Source: Magallana gigas (Eukaryota). From it: DNA of 64,000 nucleotides. The stretch lies in NCBI RefSeq assembly GCF_963853765.1, contig NC_088859.1, positions 36,084,001 to 36,148,000 on the forward strand, in the 5' to 3' direction. Within the stretch, counting starts at the first letter, position 1. Every line of letters starts with the position of its first letter. The position numbers were made by a program. This document shows, piece after piece, positions 21,101 to 39,700 of this stretch.

Positions 21101-24100
21101 AAATTTGGAGACAATTTTTTTGGACCCCCCAGCCTCCTTTAGTAAATTTACGGATACCTTTCGGAATTTTTAGAATCTCTTATGACATAAAAATATCGAT
21201 CTGTCGAATCGTCAGTGATTCAAAACTTGATTATTATATGCTCATGACTTGTTCCTTTTATCTTACAAGAGGCCTACGGGCTAATTCGCTCAACAGATCG
21301 ACACTCTACAACTCTTTTTCCATTTTACTTTTATATATTTAACGATTGCTTTTTATTCATAATTTTTTTTCTTATAGTACCACCATTTTATAGTAACACC
21401 GGCAATTTGTCGAAATATTCAGAAATTCTGCTCAAGCAAGGACGTCTTATAAAAATTAAAAAATTAAAAAGAACACATACGCAACATTAAAACAAAACAA
21501 AGCAAAATTTAAAAAACCAGAAACTCTACTTTATTCAATGAAAAATAACATCACGTTTTACTGTTTAATTTTATAAGTTTCAAAAATGCAAATGTTTATA
21601 AAATTGAAAATCGTAAATACAATTCAAGGGCAAAACACACAANNNNNNNNNNNNNNNNNNNNNNNNNNNNNNNNNNNNNNNNNNNNNNNNNNNNNNNNNN
21701 NNNNNNNNNNNNNNNNNNNNNNNNNNNNNNNNNNNNNNNNNNNNNNNNNNNNNNNNNNNNNNNNNNNNNNNNTATTTTGATAAAATTAGCTTGATGCTAG
21801 AGTCGGGCTACATCAAGTATTCCTTTCACTGTCTTGCGTGTTTTCGTCATAATTCTCAGACTCTAAATTGTTATAATTCGGATTTTCACCAAATTGTTGA
21901 ACTAGATCAATGTTATCAGTGGCTTGCCTTTCTTTTCTGTATCTATACAAGTATATGCCGCCCACACCAATCGCCAACCCAACGATAAATAGAGCTATAG
22001 ATGCTCCGGCCAATGAGCCTAAAGCAAAGAAAATTAAAAAAAAATTAGACAAGGAAATCTTAGGATACTATGAATTTTTTAAGCTAAAAAATTTAAAGAA
22101 TTATTCTCAAACAGTAAAATTTTGTTCAATAACTGCAGTCTAGTACCTCCGCTATAGCCATTATTAGGTTGGCTTGACCTCCTGCCTTGAATTTTACTTG
22201 GTTGAGAATACGATGACGGCTGGTAAAAATTTCCTACAAACAATTAATAAAAGGGGAAAATATTGTATGTTGAGAGCTTGATTCATGTAAAACACCATCC
22301 ATATCATAAATATTTTTGTTGGAATTCAAAAATTACATGTATCACGTAGAATTAATTATGTGTATGCTCATTACACAGTAATTTACGTGAAGCACAATCA
22401 TGGCTTTTTGATAACAACAATCAATCATTTTTAAAAATTGCAAAAATCTGAATACAAGTTTTATTCGCAAAACCTTACTTGAATATAAGTCACACATGTC
22501 GCTCTTAGAAACAGCGTTTCCAGACTGAAACGGATGAGATGATGTCAGTCTACACAATGACGTCATATTGCAATATGCAAAGCTCCTGCAGGCTGCTCCT
22601 TCCTGTTCCACACATAGTTTGGCGCACTGGGAACTGGTGATATTCGAAAATTCCACAACGTTTGTAAACGATATTGTCATCCTTTTTAACAACTTGAAGT
22701 CATAGAAATAGTTCTCTAAAAAATAAAAGAAGAAATATATCGAAGAACTGTCAGACCAAGTTTGGCAATGTGTTTGGTATACACGAGAAGAACACTGAAA
22801 AGGCAAGTATAGTCATTTCCTTATCTACATATACTCACTGCTGTAAAAGGAGCATGTAAGACTCTTTGAAGCTGTTTTTCCCACCATATCAAGTTCATGC
22901 ATCTTCAACAGGAGACAGTTTTTGGTACTTGTACAGTATTCAAAAGATTTGCACTGAAATGCAGTATATTGTGAGCAAAGCTTTGCACAAAGGTTTGCGG
23001 ATGGCACATTGGGGAGTGTTGCGTCAGCCTTTACTGAATACGTCAAACCAGAGGATTCTGTGTACTGATCAAGAAAATAACCTGTGAAAAGTAAGAAGAT
23101 CCATTTTATCACGAGCTTGGACTTGGGTAGTTATCAAACAGCAAAGTGACGTAGGTCTGTCTATTTCATTGTTGACTACTCAGCCATAGCTCTTTGAAAT
23201 CAACAAGATTTGACTGGCTTTTGAGCTTTAACTACGCAATCGGTGCATGTTTTGCTTAAACCAGGGTAATTTTATACGAAAATGCCAAAATATAAGATCG
23301 TTACGTCCTATCGAAAGTACAAGGCCTTGTTAAAATGGATCTTAATCAAAATCTTAGAAAGTCCAGAGACTTCAATTATTGAATTTTCCAGATAAGGGGA
23401 TTTGAATAACGTGACTTACGTGAGTACAAATCACAGTATTCCTGACGTTGTACAATTCCAGAGGAGTTGTCCGCATGGACGTGGCTAAGGAAGCAATCAC
23501 CAAGGTCAAAACAGTAACTAAACGATAGGCACTCGTACTCCATGTTGTTTATACAGCGGCGCGCGCAGTCCTCAACCGACAACCCAGCAATGGAAGTGTC
23601 GGTATTGGTAAAAATAAAGTATTGGCGATAGATGTAGAAATGTGTCAGAAGTAGATCTAAAACAGAGGGGAAATACATTATAATGCTTTTTTTCTAAAGA
23701 TTTAAACTATTTCACGACAATCTGATCCAGTACATTTTGATTTCACATATCAATTTATATTTTAAGTTTCAGAAATTATCTCCCAAAAGATCTTTTACAA
23801 CCAATTTGAAAAAAGTATGAACACTATCTATGCATCAGTTGTATCAATAAATTACTTGATTCACTTGGTCTTCCGTTTCTTAGAATACGTGTCCTAATAT
23901 TCGTTGCGTTAAATGTCTGAAATTATAAACAAAAAACCACTTCTTACCAAAACTATCTGTAGCATGGCATGTTATGAAATGTTCTTAATCAGTTTATGTC
24001 ATTCTAGGATTTCAGAATACGAAATACTTAGCCAACTTTCTGTTGCAGCTGTCCATATTTCTTGAAGAGAAATACTAATATATGTCCTAGTAGTTGTTTT

Positions 24101-36727: not shown

Positions 36728-39700
36728 TGAAGTAATACAGCATAAACAAGTTTTTCTCGGATCTGCAATTGGTATCTTGTACAAGTAAGGATTACCATGA
36801 ATATAAAAAAGCTGATCGTTGGCGTAGTCATACACCAATGTGTCTGGGGTGTTGCCAGCTGCGGTCATGATGAGAGTGGCCCTGTTATTCCTGTTGTCGA
36901 AATATTCCTCCGCGGACACGGTCATTTTCTTATCTACGATGGTGGCCTCCACTCGACTTTGAAAAGTGTCCGGTAATGTTGGGAAAGGTGGTTCTAAAAT
37001 AAATCAATAAGTGCCTGTAATGACCATATCTATGGGGACCCGACGAGTGGTTGTTCGTGGTCAGACCAAAATTGAACGAAGGCTTTAATAAATCTGAAAT
37101 TTCTTCTTTTATTGTAGACTCACCATTTGGACGTGGAGCGCTGGTTGTATTAGGTAAACAGTAAGGACTAGCTTCAGTCTTCAAGATAAGTATTGAAGCG
37201 AAAAATGTCCACAGAGGCTAGAAAAAATAAGGAAGAAGAAAAGTTGTACGTCTTGGACGGAATTCAGTTTTATTTTAGTGTTGTACAAGCATTAATTTCA
37301 TAGTTATAACCGGGTTTTCCGAAGGTAAAATCCAGTTATTGAAATGGTGAAAATGGCGGGCGGGCTGCTGCCAAAAGAGGGTACCCTTATTGTGCGGACA
37401 ACTCCTCCTACAGTTTTTAAGATAGGAAATTGTTCTTTTGCAGATCAACTGTACATATATTAGAGGTGTGCATATTGCTAGGGTTTTGATTTCTGATAAT
37501 TTATGAAAAAACTTATTTCTGTTTTTGGCAAAAAATATTTCATATATACATGTAGTGCCCCAGTTCTCTTGATAGGTTGTGGTCATCAATTCAGGGGTGA
37601 CAAATGGATTATGCATACTGTTCACACAAAAGAAAACCCGGTTTGCTGTCACATTGACAGCTTTTCTCTTATTAATAAGTTAATTTTTGTTTATAAACCA
37701 CTTGGTGCACTACGATTGCAGTATGATATGCTTAGGTTTATTTATATGTGTCTGTATAGTCTATCTATGTATCAATGCAGAATGTTTCACGTGGTATTAA
37801 GCATGTGAAATTATATCTTTACTCGATCGCCTAGCTTACCTTATGATATTTATACACTCATACACTGTATGGATAAAAATCGGGAATGCAGCTTTATCAA
37901 CATAATATCTTAAGTTCATATAATGCGTCTTACTTCTAAGATATTTCCTTTCTCATTGAAAACTCTTGTGGGTTTTATGTAAAATGACATTATTTTCGAC
38001 GACGTAGTTTCTGAGTTGTATAAATATTAACTTCTAGTATGCAAATGCAAATTTATCAGTAACAACAGCAGTTCAATATATGGTACAAAGATGGACAGGC
38101 AGATGGTTAAGGTGACAGCAAATGTCCCAAATTATTTAAACACATTTTTACAATTTACCGTTCATGATATCCTATTCCATATAACTGCATTCAAATAATC
38201 TTCATAAAATTACTTTGTCATTACATATTTTAAATACTACAGTAAAATTTTATATTCACATGTATGACATTTGAACATGTCATATAAAAGTTCAATCAAT
38301 CGGGCGTCTTTTTAATAGTAAGTATTGGCTTTAATTAACTCCGTAAGGAAAATTCTTACATAACACATTGTTGATGTTTGAACTTTAAATAAGACCTGAC
38401 CCATAGGTTTAATCTATCCAAGTGCTGACTGTGACTCCTGCATACATCTTTTATTCACAATTAATAAATGAAAAATAGATTTATTCCTACCTTCATCTTA
38501 AAGAAATCAATTTCTTATTCCCTGATTAATCCAGTGACATAATTTACCCCGGTCACAATCAAGGAGTTTTTTCTGCACGTTGGAGTTAGCCCGGGTAATC
38601 TTATCAGCCCTGTATCATTGTATTTCATCTCTATGTTATCCTCAAACAAATATTTAAACTTAAGTAAACAGATGTGGTCTGGAGGGGTTTTTTTCTACTC
38701 ACGTTTATATCATCACTGTTTAAGGAAATTAACATGATTAGATGATGAACTATCAATATAAGGTAAATAATATTACGAATAATTGATTATTTTACACAAG
38801 ATATGTACAATCTTTATTCTTTGAAATGAAATTATGCATGTAATAAGGACTAAAAACTATTTTAAAAGCTTTTTACATGTATGGGTATAAAATTATAATA
38901 TAAAGAAATGAAATAAAAGCATCAATTGACACATACATGTATGTAAAATGTCATAAAGATTCTGTATCTATGCACGTGTTCAAATATACCATCAAGCATG
39001 CACATCCACACTTCAAAAGCTATTAATACATTTGTAAGAGATCTCTGATCCATAGTCACTTGAAATCTTCTTTCAAAGTACATCTATTGCACGACTGGTT
39101 CTTCATCTTTGTTCCAGCGGAGGAATCTTGTTTGACACAGTTATCGCGCTTTGCTCCACTTCCGGTCCTCTTCACTCCTGGTGTGTGTCTGAGAACGCAG
39201 TATTTACGATGTATGTGGTCTTAGAATAGTCCGTATCCTCGTCCTCTACAGTATAAAGACCGTTTGAGTTTTTCTCCATCACAGGTTCCTTAGAAAAGTG
39301 TTCCTTGTCGAACCCATTCACCTGTTTGGGATCCTGTTTCAGCGTTCTTGATTGACGATGACTGGAAATCAAAGTTTAGGAAACCATAAGACATAAGACA
39401 GAAAATGAATACGTTGAGAAAAATCGTTTTGTTTTGATTGAGAAAAGTTTGATAATCAATTAAGTATACCTTCTTGCTCGCAGAGCCGTGATCAGAAGAG
39501 TGAGCAACAGAATCACTAAGGCTAGACACCCGATCCCTATCACTAAGTACACCCACCATTCCTGGGGACAGAAACAAGTTCTATAAACTCAATTTAAATA
39601 TTTCTGAATTTTCTGTTTAAGATTTTCAATACATGTAATCACCTATTAAGACGAAATCATTTATTGCTCCGCTAAAATTTAACATTTCCACCGCGAATGA

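What the first reader, a model, noticed from the sequence alone, without database searches (positions are those of the whole stretch)
21813..37301. Large ependymin/LolA-like + PAN/apple membrane receptor with an NPxY tail
Seen: three LolA/ependymin-like units, two SPLR/SAIR-containing SEA-like linkers, five PAN domains, a TM and FGENPNY. Known: ependymin-related proteins adopt a LolA-like lipid-binding fold and are usually small soluble lysosomal proteins; PAN domains bind proteins or glycans; NPxY drives clathrin/PTB-adaptor endocytosis. Inference: a scavenger-type receptor that captures and internalises lipids or glycolipids. I know of no functional description for this architecture in molluscs.
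Basis: partly seen in the sequence, partly recalled or inferred. Interest (0 to 1): 0.66.

Follow-up and report, generated by a model that had tools for sequence, protein, structure and literature searches.

The report
Oyster membrane protein with LolA-like cups
An intact oyster gene encodes a cell-surface protein that carries three ependymin/LolA-type cups for greasy molecules and five PAN domains on one membrane anchor; databases list the family, but nobody has tested what it binds.

Summary
The gene is real. It has 30 coding exons on the minus strand (37217-21816), plus a probable two-codon first exon at 38496-38491. All 29 introns are GT-AG and there are no in-frame stops. 1398 of 1414 whole codons equal a database protein, P0001 (1433 aa). 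Five single-exon PAN_1 domains pass Pfam's cut-off.

AlphaFold models of unit 1 (pLDDT 90) and unit 3 (pLDDT 89) match ependymin-related crystal structures first, then VioE, LolA, LprG and RseB. Unit 2 is a paralogue of unit 3. No Ependymin or SEA sequence model matches, so kinship with ependymins is at fold level only.

The 'SEA-like linkers' are front halves of a ferredoxin-like domain. That domain is contiguous in PAN-less relatives and is split here by a nested PAN exon.

The TM helix and FGENPNY are present. However, NPxY occurs in only 3 of 4 oyster orthologues and 5 of 82 family tails, and the tail is the least conserved part.

The protein belongs to a large, mainly lophotrochozoan family that Pfam lists as LolA_2nd_metazoa/DUF7959. 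Every named member seen is 'uncharacterized'. It is most likely a surface receptor for hydrophobic ligands. Endocytic uptake is plausible but unproven.

The parts
38491..38496 (-). Probable first coding exon end: ATG AAG followed by donor GTAGGA. It supplies the 'MK' of P0001.
   Evidence: The acceptor ...ttctag|CCT lies at 37218/37217. The ATGAAA at 37301 has no GT donor.
37167..37217 (-). Signal-peptide part of coding exon 1 (exon 37217-37124): PLWTFFASILILKTEA.
   Evidence: The signal-peptide call is made by eye from the hydrophobic N-terminus, not by a predictor.
35466..37166 (-). Unit 1 (P0001 residues 20-241; coding exons 1-6). First-type LolA/EPDR-fold domain with 4 Cys (22, 103, 162, 240).
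   Evidence: AF2 on the C. virginica orthologue's unit 1 with 61 rows gave pLDDT 90 and pTM 0.84. Foldseek PDB top hits were 8i34, 6jl9, 6e8n and 6jla. Coordinates.
33336..35426 (-). Unit 2 (residues 255-476; exons 6-11). Second-type LolA-like domain, a paralogue of unit 3.
   Evidence: hhalign U2 against U3: probability 99.7, E 9e-27. The family second-unit profile against U2 gave E 1.5e-35. Exon lengths and phases match those of unit 3.
33018..33335 (-). S1 (residues 477-543; end of exon 11 plus exon 12, which is phase 1-1). Front half (beta-alpha-beta-beta) of a ferredoxin-like domain; contains SAIR.
   Evidence: S1 against S2 gave E 2e-4. S1 matches positions 6-69 of the contiguous S-X profile at E 3.6e-12.
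32631..32855 (-). PAN1: one 225-nt phase 1-1 exon (exon 13), nested between S1 and X1.
   Evidence: Pfam PAN_1 E 7.7e-7, 29.3 bits. Exon data.
32137..32416 (-). X1 (residues 619-668; exons 14-15). Back half (alpha-beta-beta) of the split ferredoxin-like domain.
   Evidence: X1 matches S-X profile positions 76-103 at E 3e-5, probability 73.5. X follows S directly in PAN-less relatives.
25769..32017 (-). Unit 3 (residues 669-890; exons 16-21, including a 5,061-nt intron). Second-type LolA/EPDR-fold domain with 3 Cys.
   Evidence: AF2 on the S. echinata orthologue's U3-S2-PAN2-X2 with 52 rows gave pLDDT 89.2 and pTM 0.89. Foldseek top hits were 8i34 and 6e7o (TM by target 0.71, rmsd 3.9), 6e8n and 6jla.
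25447..25768 (-). S2 (residues 891-962; end of exon 21 plus exon 22, which is phase 1-1). Front half of the second ferredoxin-like domain; contains SPLR.
   Evidence: Secondary structure in the model: strand 226-234, helices 239-260, strands 267-274 and 280-288.
24892..25116 (-). PAN2: one 225-nt phase 1-1 exon (exon 23), nested between S2 and X2.
   Evidence: Pfam PAN_1 E 1.2e-6, 28.7 bits. Exon data.
23856..24260 (-). X2 (residues 1039-1100; exons 24-25, running a few codons into exon 26). Back half of the second ferredoxin-like domain.
   Evidence: Secondary structure in the model: helix 382-394, strands 399-404 and 407-418. X2 matches S-X profile positions 76-115 at E 3.8e-5.
23420..23656 (-). 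PAN3 (exon 26, phase 1-1). Among the most conserved segments in oysters (77% invariant).
   Evidence: Pfam PAN_1 E 6.3e-9, 36 bits. Conservation.
22839..23081 (-). PAN4 (exon 27, phase 1-1).
   Evidence: Pfam PAN_1 E 4e-8, 33.4 bits.
22479..22715 (-). PAN5 (exon 28, phase 1-1).
   Evidence: Pfam PAN_1 E 1.7e-7, 31.4 bits.
22147..22233 (-). Ser/Gln/Pro-rich juxtamembrane stalk (exon 29).
21945..22016 (-). Transmembrane helix SLAGASIALFIVGLAIGVGGIYLY.
   Evidence: Hydropathy scan.
21816..21944 (-). Cytoplasmic tail of about 44 aa. FGENPNY lies at 21893-21873, and its Tyr also starts YNNL (YxxPhi).
   Evidence: 23% of tail columns are invariant among 4 oyster orthologues.
21813..21815 (-). Stop codon TGA. 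A run of N starts 41 nt further 3' (21772-21643) and was left untouched.

Best explanation
The gene encodes a type I membrane glycoprotein of about 1433 aa, a member of the metazoan tandem LolA-like family.

Domain order (shown): signal peptide; a first-type LolA/EPDR-fold cup (U1); then two copies of the module [second-type cup, then a ferredoxin-like domain with a PAN domain nested in one of its loops]; then three further PAN domains, a short stalk, one TM helix and a tail of about 44 aa.

Proposed mechanism (inferred): the three curved-sheet cups hold hydrophobic ligands at the cell surface. Candidates are lipids, sterols, carotenoids or the acyl chains of lipoproteins. The five PAN domains dock the receptor to a protein or glycan carrier or particle. 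In this oyster lineage the overlapping NPNY/YNNL signal in the tail lets clathrin adaptors take the loaded receptor inside.

My odds, step by step:
- Real intact gene with this architecture: 0.97.
- LolA/EPDR fold of all three units: 0.9.
- Hydrophobic-ligand binding: about 0.6.
- Endocytic uptake as the purpose: about 0.3.
For: Gene:
- 29 of 29 GT-AG junctions, 0 stops, and 1398 of 1414 codons equal to P0001.
- P0001 comes from intron-less contigs of at most 4492 nt. I infer these are transcript-derived.

Fold:
- The U1 model has pLDDT 90.
- Its first six Foldseek PDB hits are ependymin-related proteins: sponge EPD-BCP1 8i34 (E 2.7e-8, TM by target 0.66), frog 6jl9, human 6e8n and mouse 6jla. 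VioE, LolA, RseB and LprF/G follow; 97 matches have E<=1e-3.
- The U3-S2-PAN2-X2 model has pLDDT 89.2 and pTM 0.89. Its top hits are 8i34, 6e7o (TM by target 0.71), 6e8n and 6jla.

Homology among the units:
- Family first-unit profile against second-unit profile: E 1.7e-26.
- First-unit profile against U3: E 4.5e-11.
- First-unit profile against U2: E 2e-7.

What the fold does elsewhere:
- EPDR1 has a deep hydrophobic groove and binds anionic-lipid and GM1 liposomes (PMC6363788, passages).
- EPDR1 displaces ANS with fatty acids and is called a general hydrophobic-molecule binder (PMC6608618, passages).
- The sponge EPD binds two carotenoids (PMC10470211, passages).

Membrane anchorage:
- The TM helix is present.
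- 87 of the 150 listed family representatives have a C-terminal hydrophobic helix by a crude scan.

Constraint lies on the ectodomain: 77% of U3 and PAN3 columns are invariant among 4 oysters.

Tail: NPNY overlaps YxxPhi in 3 of 4 oyster orthologues.
Against: - No sequence-level link to ependymins. Pfam Ependymin hit 0 of 22 exon ORFs and 0 of 4 orthologues. It gave only 2 sub-threshold hits among 55 relatives.
- HMM profiles A1 and A2 reach no EPDR or LolA chain in the PDB at E<=10.
A hydrophobic cavity is therefore assumed, not shown.
- The LolA fold also serves protein binding (RseB) and catalysis (VioE).
- The sponge EPD binds its ligands at a dimer interface, not in the cup.
- NPx[YF] is absent from C. 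virginica and the scallop orthologue, and present in only 5 of 82 family tails.
- The tail is 23% invariant, and most family tails are 10-30 aa long and dissimilar.
- No expression, localisation or binding data were found. Supplementary tables were closed.
Confidence: 0.5

Rival explanations
1. Pattern-recognition or adhesion receptor. The cups recognise microbial lipids (acyl chains of lipoproteins, LPS-type lipids) and the PAN domains recognise glycans. The receptor agglutinates or signals rather than importing nutrients.
For: - The bacterial relatives of the fold (LolA, LolB, LprG) carry lipoprotein or glycolipid acyl chains (PMC6363788 passages).
- EPDRs are reported as regulated in bivalve pathogen challenges (PMC6280359 passage).
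- Family members combine the cups with SRCR (P0059) or uPAR/Ly6 (P0044) domains.
- The family is large and architecturally varied: 452 representatives at E<=1e-3 and many architectures.
- The tail is short and poorly conserved, which fits a co-receptor-dependent sensor.
Against: - No signalling domain or motif was found in the tail.
- One-to-one orthologues at 74-80% identity across oyster genera, with 77% invariant U3 and PAN3, look more like a housekeeping ligand than a fast-evolving immune target.
- No expression data were seen.
Confidence: 0.2
2. The LolA-like units are protein-binding or purely structural modules (as in RseB, which binds RseA). The protein would then be an adhesive or matrix- or mucus-organising surface glycoprotein with no small hydrophobic ligand.
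For: - RseB is among the structural matches.
- PAN/apple domains are protein- or carbohydrate-binding modules (my own knowledge).
- The protein has 18 N-glycosylation sequons.
- pTM 0.89 for U3-S2-PAN2-X2 suggests a rigid multi-domain rod.
Against: - The nearest structures are the ligand-binding EPDRs, ranked ahead of RseB.
- According to PMC6363788, a hydrophobic pocket is the unifying feature of the superfamily.
Confidence: 0.15
3. The locus is a pseudogene, a chimaeric assembly, or a chance string of ORFs.
For: A run of N lies 41 nt after the stop, and the first two codons are not placed with certainty.
Against: - 30 exons are in phase, with 29 of 29 GT-AG junctions and no stops.
- The locus is 99% identical to an intron-less database protein.
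- Full-length orthologues exist in four oyster genera, scallops, Dreissena and Pinctada.
Confidence: 0.02

Closest known systems
Pfam LolA_2nd_metazoa (PF25898) / DUF7959 (PF25899) proteins, e.g. C. virginica LOC111121287, Ostrea edulis LOC125670858, Saccostrea echinata LOC133199694, Mizuhopecten LOC110457136
   Same: - Orthologues share the same full architecture at 74-80% identity in oysters and 47% in scallop.
- The database's precomputed annotation puts PF25898 and PAN_1 on P0001-P0004.
- The Atlas lists clusters named 'Metazoan 2nd LolA-like/PAN domain-containing protein'.
   Different: There is nothing structural to distinguish. The window's gene is one more member. None of the named members seen carries a functional name, and I found no paper.
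Ependymin-related proteins (human, mouse and frog EPDR1: 6E7O, 6E8N, 6JLA, 6JL9; sponge carotenoprotein EPD-BCP1: 8I34)
   Same: - They are the best structural matches of units 1 and 3.
- They are extracellular, glycosylated and disulfide-bonded.
- Unit 1 has four Cys in the order N-terminus / mid-sheet / late loop / C-terminus, as in EPDR 'profile 1' (the correspondence is by eye).
   Different: - Identity in the structural alignments is 8-15% and there is no Ependymin HMM match.
- EPDRs are soluble single-domain proteins of about 213 aa that form dimers.
- Here three cups sit in one chain, tethered to the membrane and interleaved with PAN and ferredoxin-like domains.
Bacterial LolA/LolB, LprG/LprF, RseB, VioE (LolA-fold superfamily)
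   Same: They share the same curved-sheet fold. Foldseek E values are 5e-7 to 1e-4 with TM about 0.4-0.6.
   Different: They are periplasmic or cytosolic bacterial proteins without disulfides, they have no shared sequence signal, and they rank below the EPDRs.
LDL-receptor-type endocytic receptors with FxNPxY tails
   Same: Single-pass type I topology, a modular ectodomain built from phase 1-1 exons, and an NPxY in a short tail.
   Different: - No LDL-A, EGF or YWTD modules were found.
- F is at -6, not -5.
- The motif is not conserved in the family.
- The LDLR motif itself is recalled, not tested here.
SEA domains of mucins and other surface glycoproteins
   Same: A juxtaposed alpha/beta-sandwich module of about 125 aa in a type I surface glycoprotein, with secondary-structure order beta-alpha-beta-beta ... 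alpha-beta-beta.
   Different: - No SEA HMM match.
- No G-S-V-V-V-like cleavage motif in 5 orthologues.
- The Atlas structure neighbours outside the family are other ferredoxin-like folds (Y1 transposase, rhamnose mutarotase, GYD, TRADD-N; TM 0.46-0.58), not SEA.
- The domain is interrupted by a nested PAN.
PAN/apple domains (plasminogen/HGF N-domain type)
   Same: Five Pfam PAN_1 matches above the cut-off, each with six Cys. There are weak PDB sequence hits to HGF and plasminogen.
   Different: Two of the five are inserted inside another domain.

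Membership tests
Ependymin / EPDR (Pfam PF00811) | Significant match to the Ependymin sequence model | tested here: not met
   0 of 22 exon ORFs at E<=1 and 0 of 4 full-length orthologues at E<=0.01. Among 55 relatives, 2 gave sub-threshold hits only (22.3 and 20.4 bits against a cut-off of 32.3). HMM profiles reach no EPDR chain in the PDB at E<=10.
Ependymin / EPDR (Pfam PF00811) | LolA-like curved antiparallel sheet fold, nearest to EPDR structures | tested here: met
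   Units 1 and 3: Foldseek top hits are 8i34, 6jl9, 6e8n, 6jla and 6e7o, with E 2.7e-8 to 1e-6 and TM by target 0.58-0.71. Unit 2 by homology to unit 3.
Ependymin / EPDR (Pfam PF00811) | Secreted soluble single-domain protein of about 200 aa with four to six conserved Cys | tested here: not met
   The protein is 1433 aa with a TM helix. Unit 1 keeps four Cys, unit 2 has four in other places and unit 3 has three. EPDR features are taken from PMC6280359 passages.
Ependymin / EPDR (Pfam PF00811) | Hydrophobic pocket that binds lipids or other hydrophobic molecules | not testable with these tools
Metazoan tandem LolA-like family (Pfam PF25898 LolA_2nd_metazoa, PF25899 DUF7959) | Carries the PF25898 domain | tested here: met
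   Precomputed annotation puts PF25898.1 on P0001-P0004. Names come from the Atlas (Pfam 38.1). The local Pfam copy returned no hit to these two models, so I did not re-score them myself.
Metazoan tandem LolA-like family (Pfam PF25898 LolA_2nd_metazoa, PF25899 DUF7959) | First-type unit followed by second-type unit, an alpha/beta domain and a C-terminal TM helix | tested here: met
   Segment-HMM scan of 154 proteins. Class counts for the 150 listed representatives are. In the unit tree, first-type units split from second-type units with 100/100 support.
SEA domain (Pfam PF01390) | Match to the SEA sequence model | tested here: not met
   No SEA hit on 22 exon ORFs at E<=1 or on 4 orthologues at E<=0.01.
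SEA domain (Pfam PF01390) | Autoproteolysis motif of the G/SVVV type | tested here: not met
   The regular expression G[ST][VIA][VI][VIA] is absent from P0001-P0005. The motif itself is recalled.
SEA domain (Pfam PF01390) | Alpha/beta sandwich (beta-alpha-beta-beta-alpha-beta) fold | tested here: inconclusive
   The secondary-structure order fits. For the contiguous S-X of a relative, the Atlas structure search gives ferredoxin-like neighbours at TM 0.46-0.58 but no SEA row. No domain-only model could be searched against the PDB.
PAN/apple (Pfam PF00024) | PAN_1 model above the gathering score, with the conserved Cys pattern | tested here: met
   Five exons score 28.7-36.0 bits against a cut-off of 21.4. 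Each has six Cys.
NPxY-dependent endocytic receptors (LDLR type) | FxNPxY in the cytoplasmic tail | tested here: inconclusive
   FGENPNY is present. NPxY is met, but F is at -6. The Tyr also starts YNNL.
NPxY-dependent endocytic receptors (LDLR type) | Motif conserved among orthologues and relatives | tested here: not met
   Present in 3 of 4 oyster orthologues (C. virginica has DPNS) and in 5 of 82 family tails of at least 8 aa.
NPxY-dependent endocytic receptors (LDLR type) | Binding of PTB-domain adaptors, and internalisation | not testable with these tools
   Needs cell biology.

The most novel reading that the evidence does not exclude
The tandem LolA-like family may be an unrecognised class of animal cell-surface receptors for hydrophobic cargo.

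In this reading the first-type and second-type cups of one chain pack as a covalent pseudo-heterodimer. They would clamp carotenoids, sterols or lipids between or within them, as the two chains of the sponge ependymin carotenoprotein do. Nested and membrane-proximal PAN domains would dock the carrier or food particle. In oysters the receptor would move dietary lipids or carotenoids from the gut lumen or haemolymph into cells.

This would give the ependymin fold, whose function has been argued over since the fish-brain work, a membrane-bound and genetically tractable relative.
Probability: 0.2. Interest if true: 0.7.

Novelty: new variant of a known kind. Interest (0 to 1): 0.45.

Why it matters
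What ependymin-related proteins do is still unsettled. The structural papers end with 'general hydrophobic-molecule binder' or 'possible lipid activator or transporter'.

This family is large. It has 452 representatives at 50% identity clustering, found in molluscs, annelids, nemerteans, brachiopods, a crinoid and a tick. In it, cups of the same fold are fixed to the cell surface, which offers a system where ligand, partner and trafficking can be asked directly.

For bivalve biology it is a candidate for lipid, sterol or carotenoid handling, or for microbial-lipid sensing.

It is also a clean case of domain nesting by exon shuffling. A phase 1-1 PAN exon sits between the phase 1-1 front-half exon and the back-half exons of a ferredoxin-like domain. 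The whole module was then duplicated before bivalves and gastropods split.

Against that, the gene is already predicted in several genomes, its domains are already in Pfam, and nothing here shows function.

Tried and rejected
- **BRICHOS.** Sub-threshold Pfam hits (19.4-22.9 bits against a cut-off of 25) fall at the same spot of unit 2 in 3 of 4 orthologues and in P0005. I rejected them: the equivalent stretch of unit 3 is part of the all-beta LolA-like sheet in the model.
- **ATG at 37301 as start.** Rejected, because it has no donor.
- **Sequence route to ependymin.** PDB HMM searches with A1 and A2 found only weak PAN and TM-helix hits. The Atlas feature search on unit 1 gave ependymin clusters at 0.91 and 0.89, which is a lead only.
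- **Four-sequence profiles.** U1 against U3 gave E 0.029, not significant. Deeper family profiles settled it.
- **Alignment A3** (query plus two-module and one-module proteins). Dropped because the one-module rows aligned to the first module, giving 0-26% identity to the query. A4 without two-module rows replaced it.
- **Atlas feature search on the S-X domain.** Best score was 0.77, which is uninformative.
- **The listing of cluster members.** It was switched off, so names and taxa rest on 39 rows. The 150 representatives have no names.
- **Complex prediction** (does unit 1 pack on unit 2?). There is no result of any kind.
- **Rfam and tRNA scans of the window.** Both found nothing.
- **Literature.** Locus identifiers, 'LolA-like domain-containing', PF25898/PF25899, DUF7959, and ependymin plus apple domain gave no paper on this architecture. 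Supplementary expression tables were closed and may list these loci.
- **Not used or not available.** No eukaryotic genome context of relatives could therefore be compared.

Full report
**1. What is in the sequence**

The finding lies on the minus strand. A stop-to-stop ORF list shows a chain of coding-looking ORFs from about 37200 down to 21813.

- 22 exon-bearing ORFs went to Pfam one by one.
- One exon (36728-37003) went to the protein collection.
That joined step was left out.
- All whole-length statements rest on database proteins that one search returned.

The four proteins returned:
- P0001: 1433 aa, 99% identical to the exon, from intron-less contigs of at most 4492 nt.
- P0002: Crassostrea virginica LOC111121287 isoform X2.
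- P0003: Ostrea edulis LOC125670858.
- P0004: Saccostrea echinata LOC133199694.

P0001 maps collinearly onto the window. Gene-model results:
- Splice-site refinement gives 30 coding exons between 37217 and 21816.
- 29 of 29 junctions are GT-AG in consistent phase.
- 1398 of 1414 whole codons equal P0001, and there are no in-frame stops.
- The stop codon TGA is at 21815-21813.
- A run of N (21772-21643) begins 41 nt after the stop. I left it alone.

The ATGAAA at 37301 has no donor and lies upstream of the acceptor ...ttctag|CCT at 37217. A better candidate for the two missing codons 'MK' is ATGAAG|GTAGGA at 38496-38491. This placement is inferred, not shown.

**2. Domains**

*PAN.* Five exon ORFs hit PAN_1 above Pfam's cut-off, at 28.7-36.0 bits against 21.4. 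Each PAN is one exon of 225-243 nt in phase 1-1 (exons 13, 23, 26, 27 and 28). Each has six Cys.

*The three units.* Neither the exons (E<=1) nor the four orthologues (E<=0.01) match Pfam Ependymin. HMM profiles of the family reach no EPDR or LolA chain in the PDB at E<=10. I therefore tested the fold.

A phmmer scan of 1.84 billion representatives with unit 1 of P0002 found 452 proteins at E<=1e-3, 229 at E<=1e-10 and 31 at E<=1e-30.

Unit 1:
- With 60 of those proteins as the alignment, AlphaFold2 gave pLDDT 90 and pTM 0.84, a 14-strand sheet with short helices.
- Foldseek against the PDB put ependymin-related proteins first: sponge EPD-BCP1 8i34 (E 2.7e-8, TM by target 0.66), frog 6jl9, human 6e8n and mouse 6jla.
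- VioE, an uncharacterised Thermus protein, RseB, LprF/LprG and many LolA structures followed. 97 matches had E<=1e-3.

Unit 3:
- The stretch U3-S2-PAN2-X2 of P0004, aligned with 51 one-module relatives, gave pLDDT 89.2 and pTM 0.89.
- It gave the same ranking: 8i34, then 6e7o with TM by target 0.71 and rmsd 3.9, then 6e8n and 6jla.

Unit 2:
- It is a clear paralogue of unit 3 (hhalign probability 99.7, E 9e-27).

All three units are homologous at profile level:
- Family first-unit profile against second-unit profile: E 1.7e-26.
- First-unit profile against U3: E 4.5e-11.
- First-unit profile against U2: E 2e-7.

So 'three LolA/ependymin-like units' is correct as a statement about fold. It is not shown as membership of the Ependymin sequence family. 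Identity in the structural alignments is 8-15%.

**3. The 'SEA-like linkers'**

The SAIR and SPLR motifs are real (P0001 residues 513 and 931). They lie in a conserved beta-alpha-beta-beta segment (S) after units 2 and 3. S is not a whole domain, for four reasons:
- In relatives without PAN, S is followed within about 5 residues by a segment (X). In this gene X comes after the PAN exon. In alignment A4, 12 of 51 rows fill the 76 PAN2 columns; the PAN-less rows put 0-6 residues there, while most still cover both S2 and X2.
- A profile of the contiguous S-X region matches S1 and S2 with its positions 4-69 (E 3.6e-12 and 5e-11). It matches X1 and X2 with its positions 76-115 (E 3e-5 and 3.8e-5).
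- X is alpha-beta-beta in the model, so S+X reads beta-alpha-beta-beta | PAN | alpha-beta-beta.
- The Atlas's own model of a PAN-less relative (P0018, residues 462-589) superposes on family clusters at TM 0.80-0.81. This includes the PAN-bearing 1015-aa cluster. Outside the family it matches ferredoxin-like folds (Y1 transposase, rhamnose mutarotase, GYD, TRADD-N) at TM 0.46-0.58, and no SEA row appears.

There is no SEA HMM hit and no G-S-V-V-V-type motif.

I conclude, with an inferred step, that each PAN1 and PAN2 is nested in a loop of a ferredoxin-like domain. I could not inspect coordinates.

The precomputed Pfam labels fit this reading. DUF7959 is on 14 of the 14 PAN-less rows other than the shorter P0167 (499 aa), but on only 3 of 22 PAN-bearing rows. 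This would follow if DUF7959 is the S-X domain and the insertion breaks the match (inference).

**4. Gene history**

Exons of unit 2 and of unit 3 have near-equal lengths and identical phases:

| Segment | First module | Second module |
|---|---|---|
| Unit (U2 / U3) | exons 7-11: 112/191/111/84/136 nt | exons 17-21: 112/179/111/81/124 nt |
| S exon | 165 nt | 180 nt |
| PAN exon | 225 nt | 225 nt |
| X exons | 110/40 nt | 119/61 nt |

. The module [cup - S - PAN - X] was therefore duplicated as a block.

A maximum-likelihood tree of 56 units from 21 named proteins shows:
- First-type units separate from second-type units with 100/100 support.
- The third units of oysters, scallops, Dreissena, Pinctada and Aplysia fall in one clade (99/94).
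- The second units of the same proteins fall in another clade (98/93 for nine rows).

The duplication therefore predates the bivalve-gastropod split. Lingula's (first-second)x3 array is an independent expansion.

**5. The family**

A crude scan of the 150 listed representatives gives these classes:

| Class | Count |
|---|---|
| Two units, no PAN | 56 (35 with a C-terminal TM helix) |
| Two units plus PAN plus TM | 16 |
| Three or more units plus PAN | 12 |
| Three or more units, no PAN | 12 |
| One unit, no PAN (many probably partial models) | 43 |
| One unit plus PAN | 3 |
| Fragments | 8 |

Pfam on 55 of the representatives gave:
- PAN_1 in 17.
- Sub-threshold Ependymin in 2.
- SRCR, uPAR/Ly6, EGF and an ionotropic-glutamate-receptor fusion in one each.
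- Nothing in 32.

Named members come from bivalves, gastropods, cephalopods, an annelid (Owenia), a nemertean (Lineus), a brachiopod (Lingula), a crinoid (Anneissia) and a tick (Ornithodoros). All carry only automatic names.

Pfam 38.1 names the domains LolA_2nd_metazoa (PF25898) and DUF7959 (PF25899). The window's closest named orthologue is C. virginica at 80% identity, so the source is an oyster other than C. virginica.

**6. Tail**

The TM helix and FGENPNY are confirmed. The Tyr also begins YNNL, a YxxPhi motif.

Conservation is poor, however:
- O. edulis and S. echinata keep NPNY plus YxxPhi. C. virginica has DPNS. The scallop tail is unrelated.
- Over the family, NPx[YF] occurs in 5 of 82 tails of at least 8 aa.
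- Among the four oysters the tail has 23% invariant columns. This compares with 77% for unit 3 and PAN3, 76% for X1, 72% for PAN4 and 43% for PAN2.

Other family tails share different short motifs ('FVN', 'PY..[TQ][ED]'; by eye).

**7. Function**

What the fold does elsewhere:
- Human EPDR1 has a deep hydrophobic groove and binds BMP- or GM1-containing liposomes at acid pH (PMC6363788, passages).
- EPDR1 displaces ANS with fatty acids and is described as a general hydrophobic binder (PMC6608618, passages).
- The sponge protein, the best structural match here, is a heterodimer that holds two carotenoids at its interface (PMC10470211, passages).
- EPDRs as surveyed are soluble, with a median length of 213 aa (PMC6280359, passages).

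I therefore commit to a surface receptor whose cups hold hydrophobic ligands and whose PAN domains dock a protein or glycan partner. Internalisation through NPNY/YNNL is a lineage-specific and unproven addition. The rivals are microbial-lipid recognition, a protein-binding or structural role, and (negligibly) an artefact.

**8. Novelty**

The gene is predicted in several genomes and its domains are in Pfam, so the object itself is not new. The following are, as far as my searches reach (supplements closed), undescribed in print:
- The membrane-tethered tandem use of the ependymin fold.
- The nested PAN insertion.
- Any function for the family.

I rate it a new variant of a known kind, of moderate interest.

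Noticed in passing
window 28724-30638 (inside the 5,061-nt intron between exons 17 and 18): A tandem array of 11.5 copies of a 166-nt unit at 97% match. The period equals that given for the oyster Cg170/HindIII satellite, which is often carried by Helentron-type elements (PMC7492417 passages). I did not compare the sequence with Cg170.
   Followed up: partly
window 32943-33016 and 36677-36723; also 30803-30856: (GA)37 lies directly 3' of the exon-12 donor, and (AG)23.5 lies in intron 2. They read as 'SLSLSL' or 'ERERER' in the ORF list. A (GACG)13.8 array sits in the large intron.
   Followed up: no
window 21643-21772 and 52245-52377: Two runs of N. The first begins 41 nt after the gene's stop codon, so the 3' UTR is incomplete in the window. 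Both were left as they are.
   Followed up: no
window 43558-45750 (-): A single 731-aa ORF with several EGF and teneurin-type EGF matches, separated by long Thr/Ser-rich mucin-like stretches. It is a neighbouring gene and is unrelated to the finding.
   Followed up: partly
window 52729-53916 (-): A 396-aa ORF with an N-terminal CARD domain (E 4.2e-13).
   Followed up: partly
window 57692-58174 and 58703-59440 (-): Two ORFs match the two ends of Mediator subunit Med8 (E 2.4e-8 and 2.3e-11). They are probably exons of one gene.
   Followed up: partly
P0001 residues 303-348 (unit 2; window about 34900-34620): A sub-threshold BRICHOS match recurs at the same place in 3 of 4 oyster orthologues and in the scallop protein. 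I judged it spurious because the paralogous stretch is all-beta in the model.
   Followed up: partly
relatives P0032, P0056, P0106, P0059, P0044, P0046, P0180: The family shows other architectures:
- Arrays of three to five or more first-type cups.
- Lingula, with (first-second)x3.
- Cups joined to SRCR or uPAR/Ly6 domains.
- One model fused to an ionotropic glutamate receptor, possibly a gene-model fusion.

   Followed up: no
cytoplasmic tails of relatives: Recurring short tail motifs differ from NPxY: '..FVN..' in many PAN-bearing members and '[VI]PY..[TQ][ED]' near the C-terminus of many PAN-less members. These were seen by eye only. The oyster 'IDLVQQFGENPNY' may derive from the former.
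   Followed up: no
window 31314-31395: A 39-nt inverted repeat (95% complementary, 4-nt loop) lies in the large intron.
   Followed up: no
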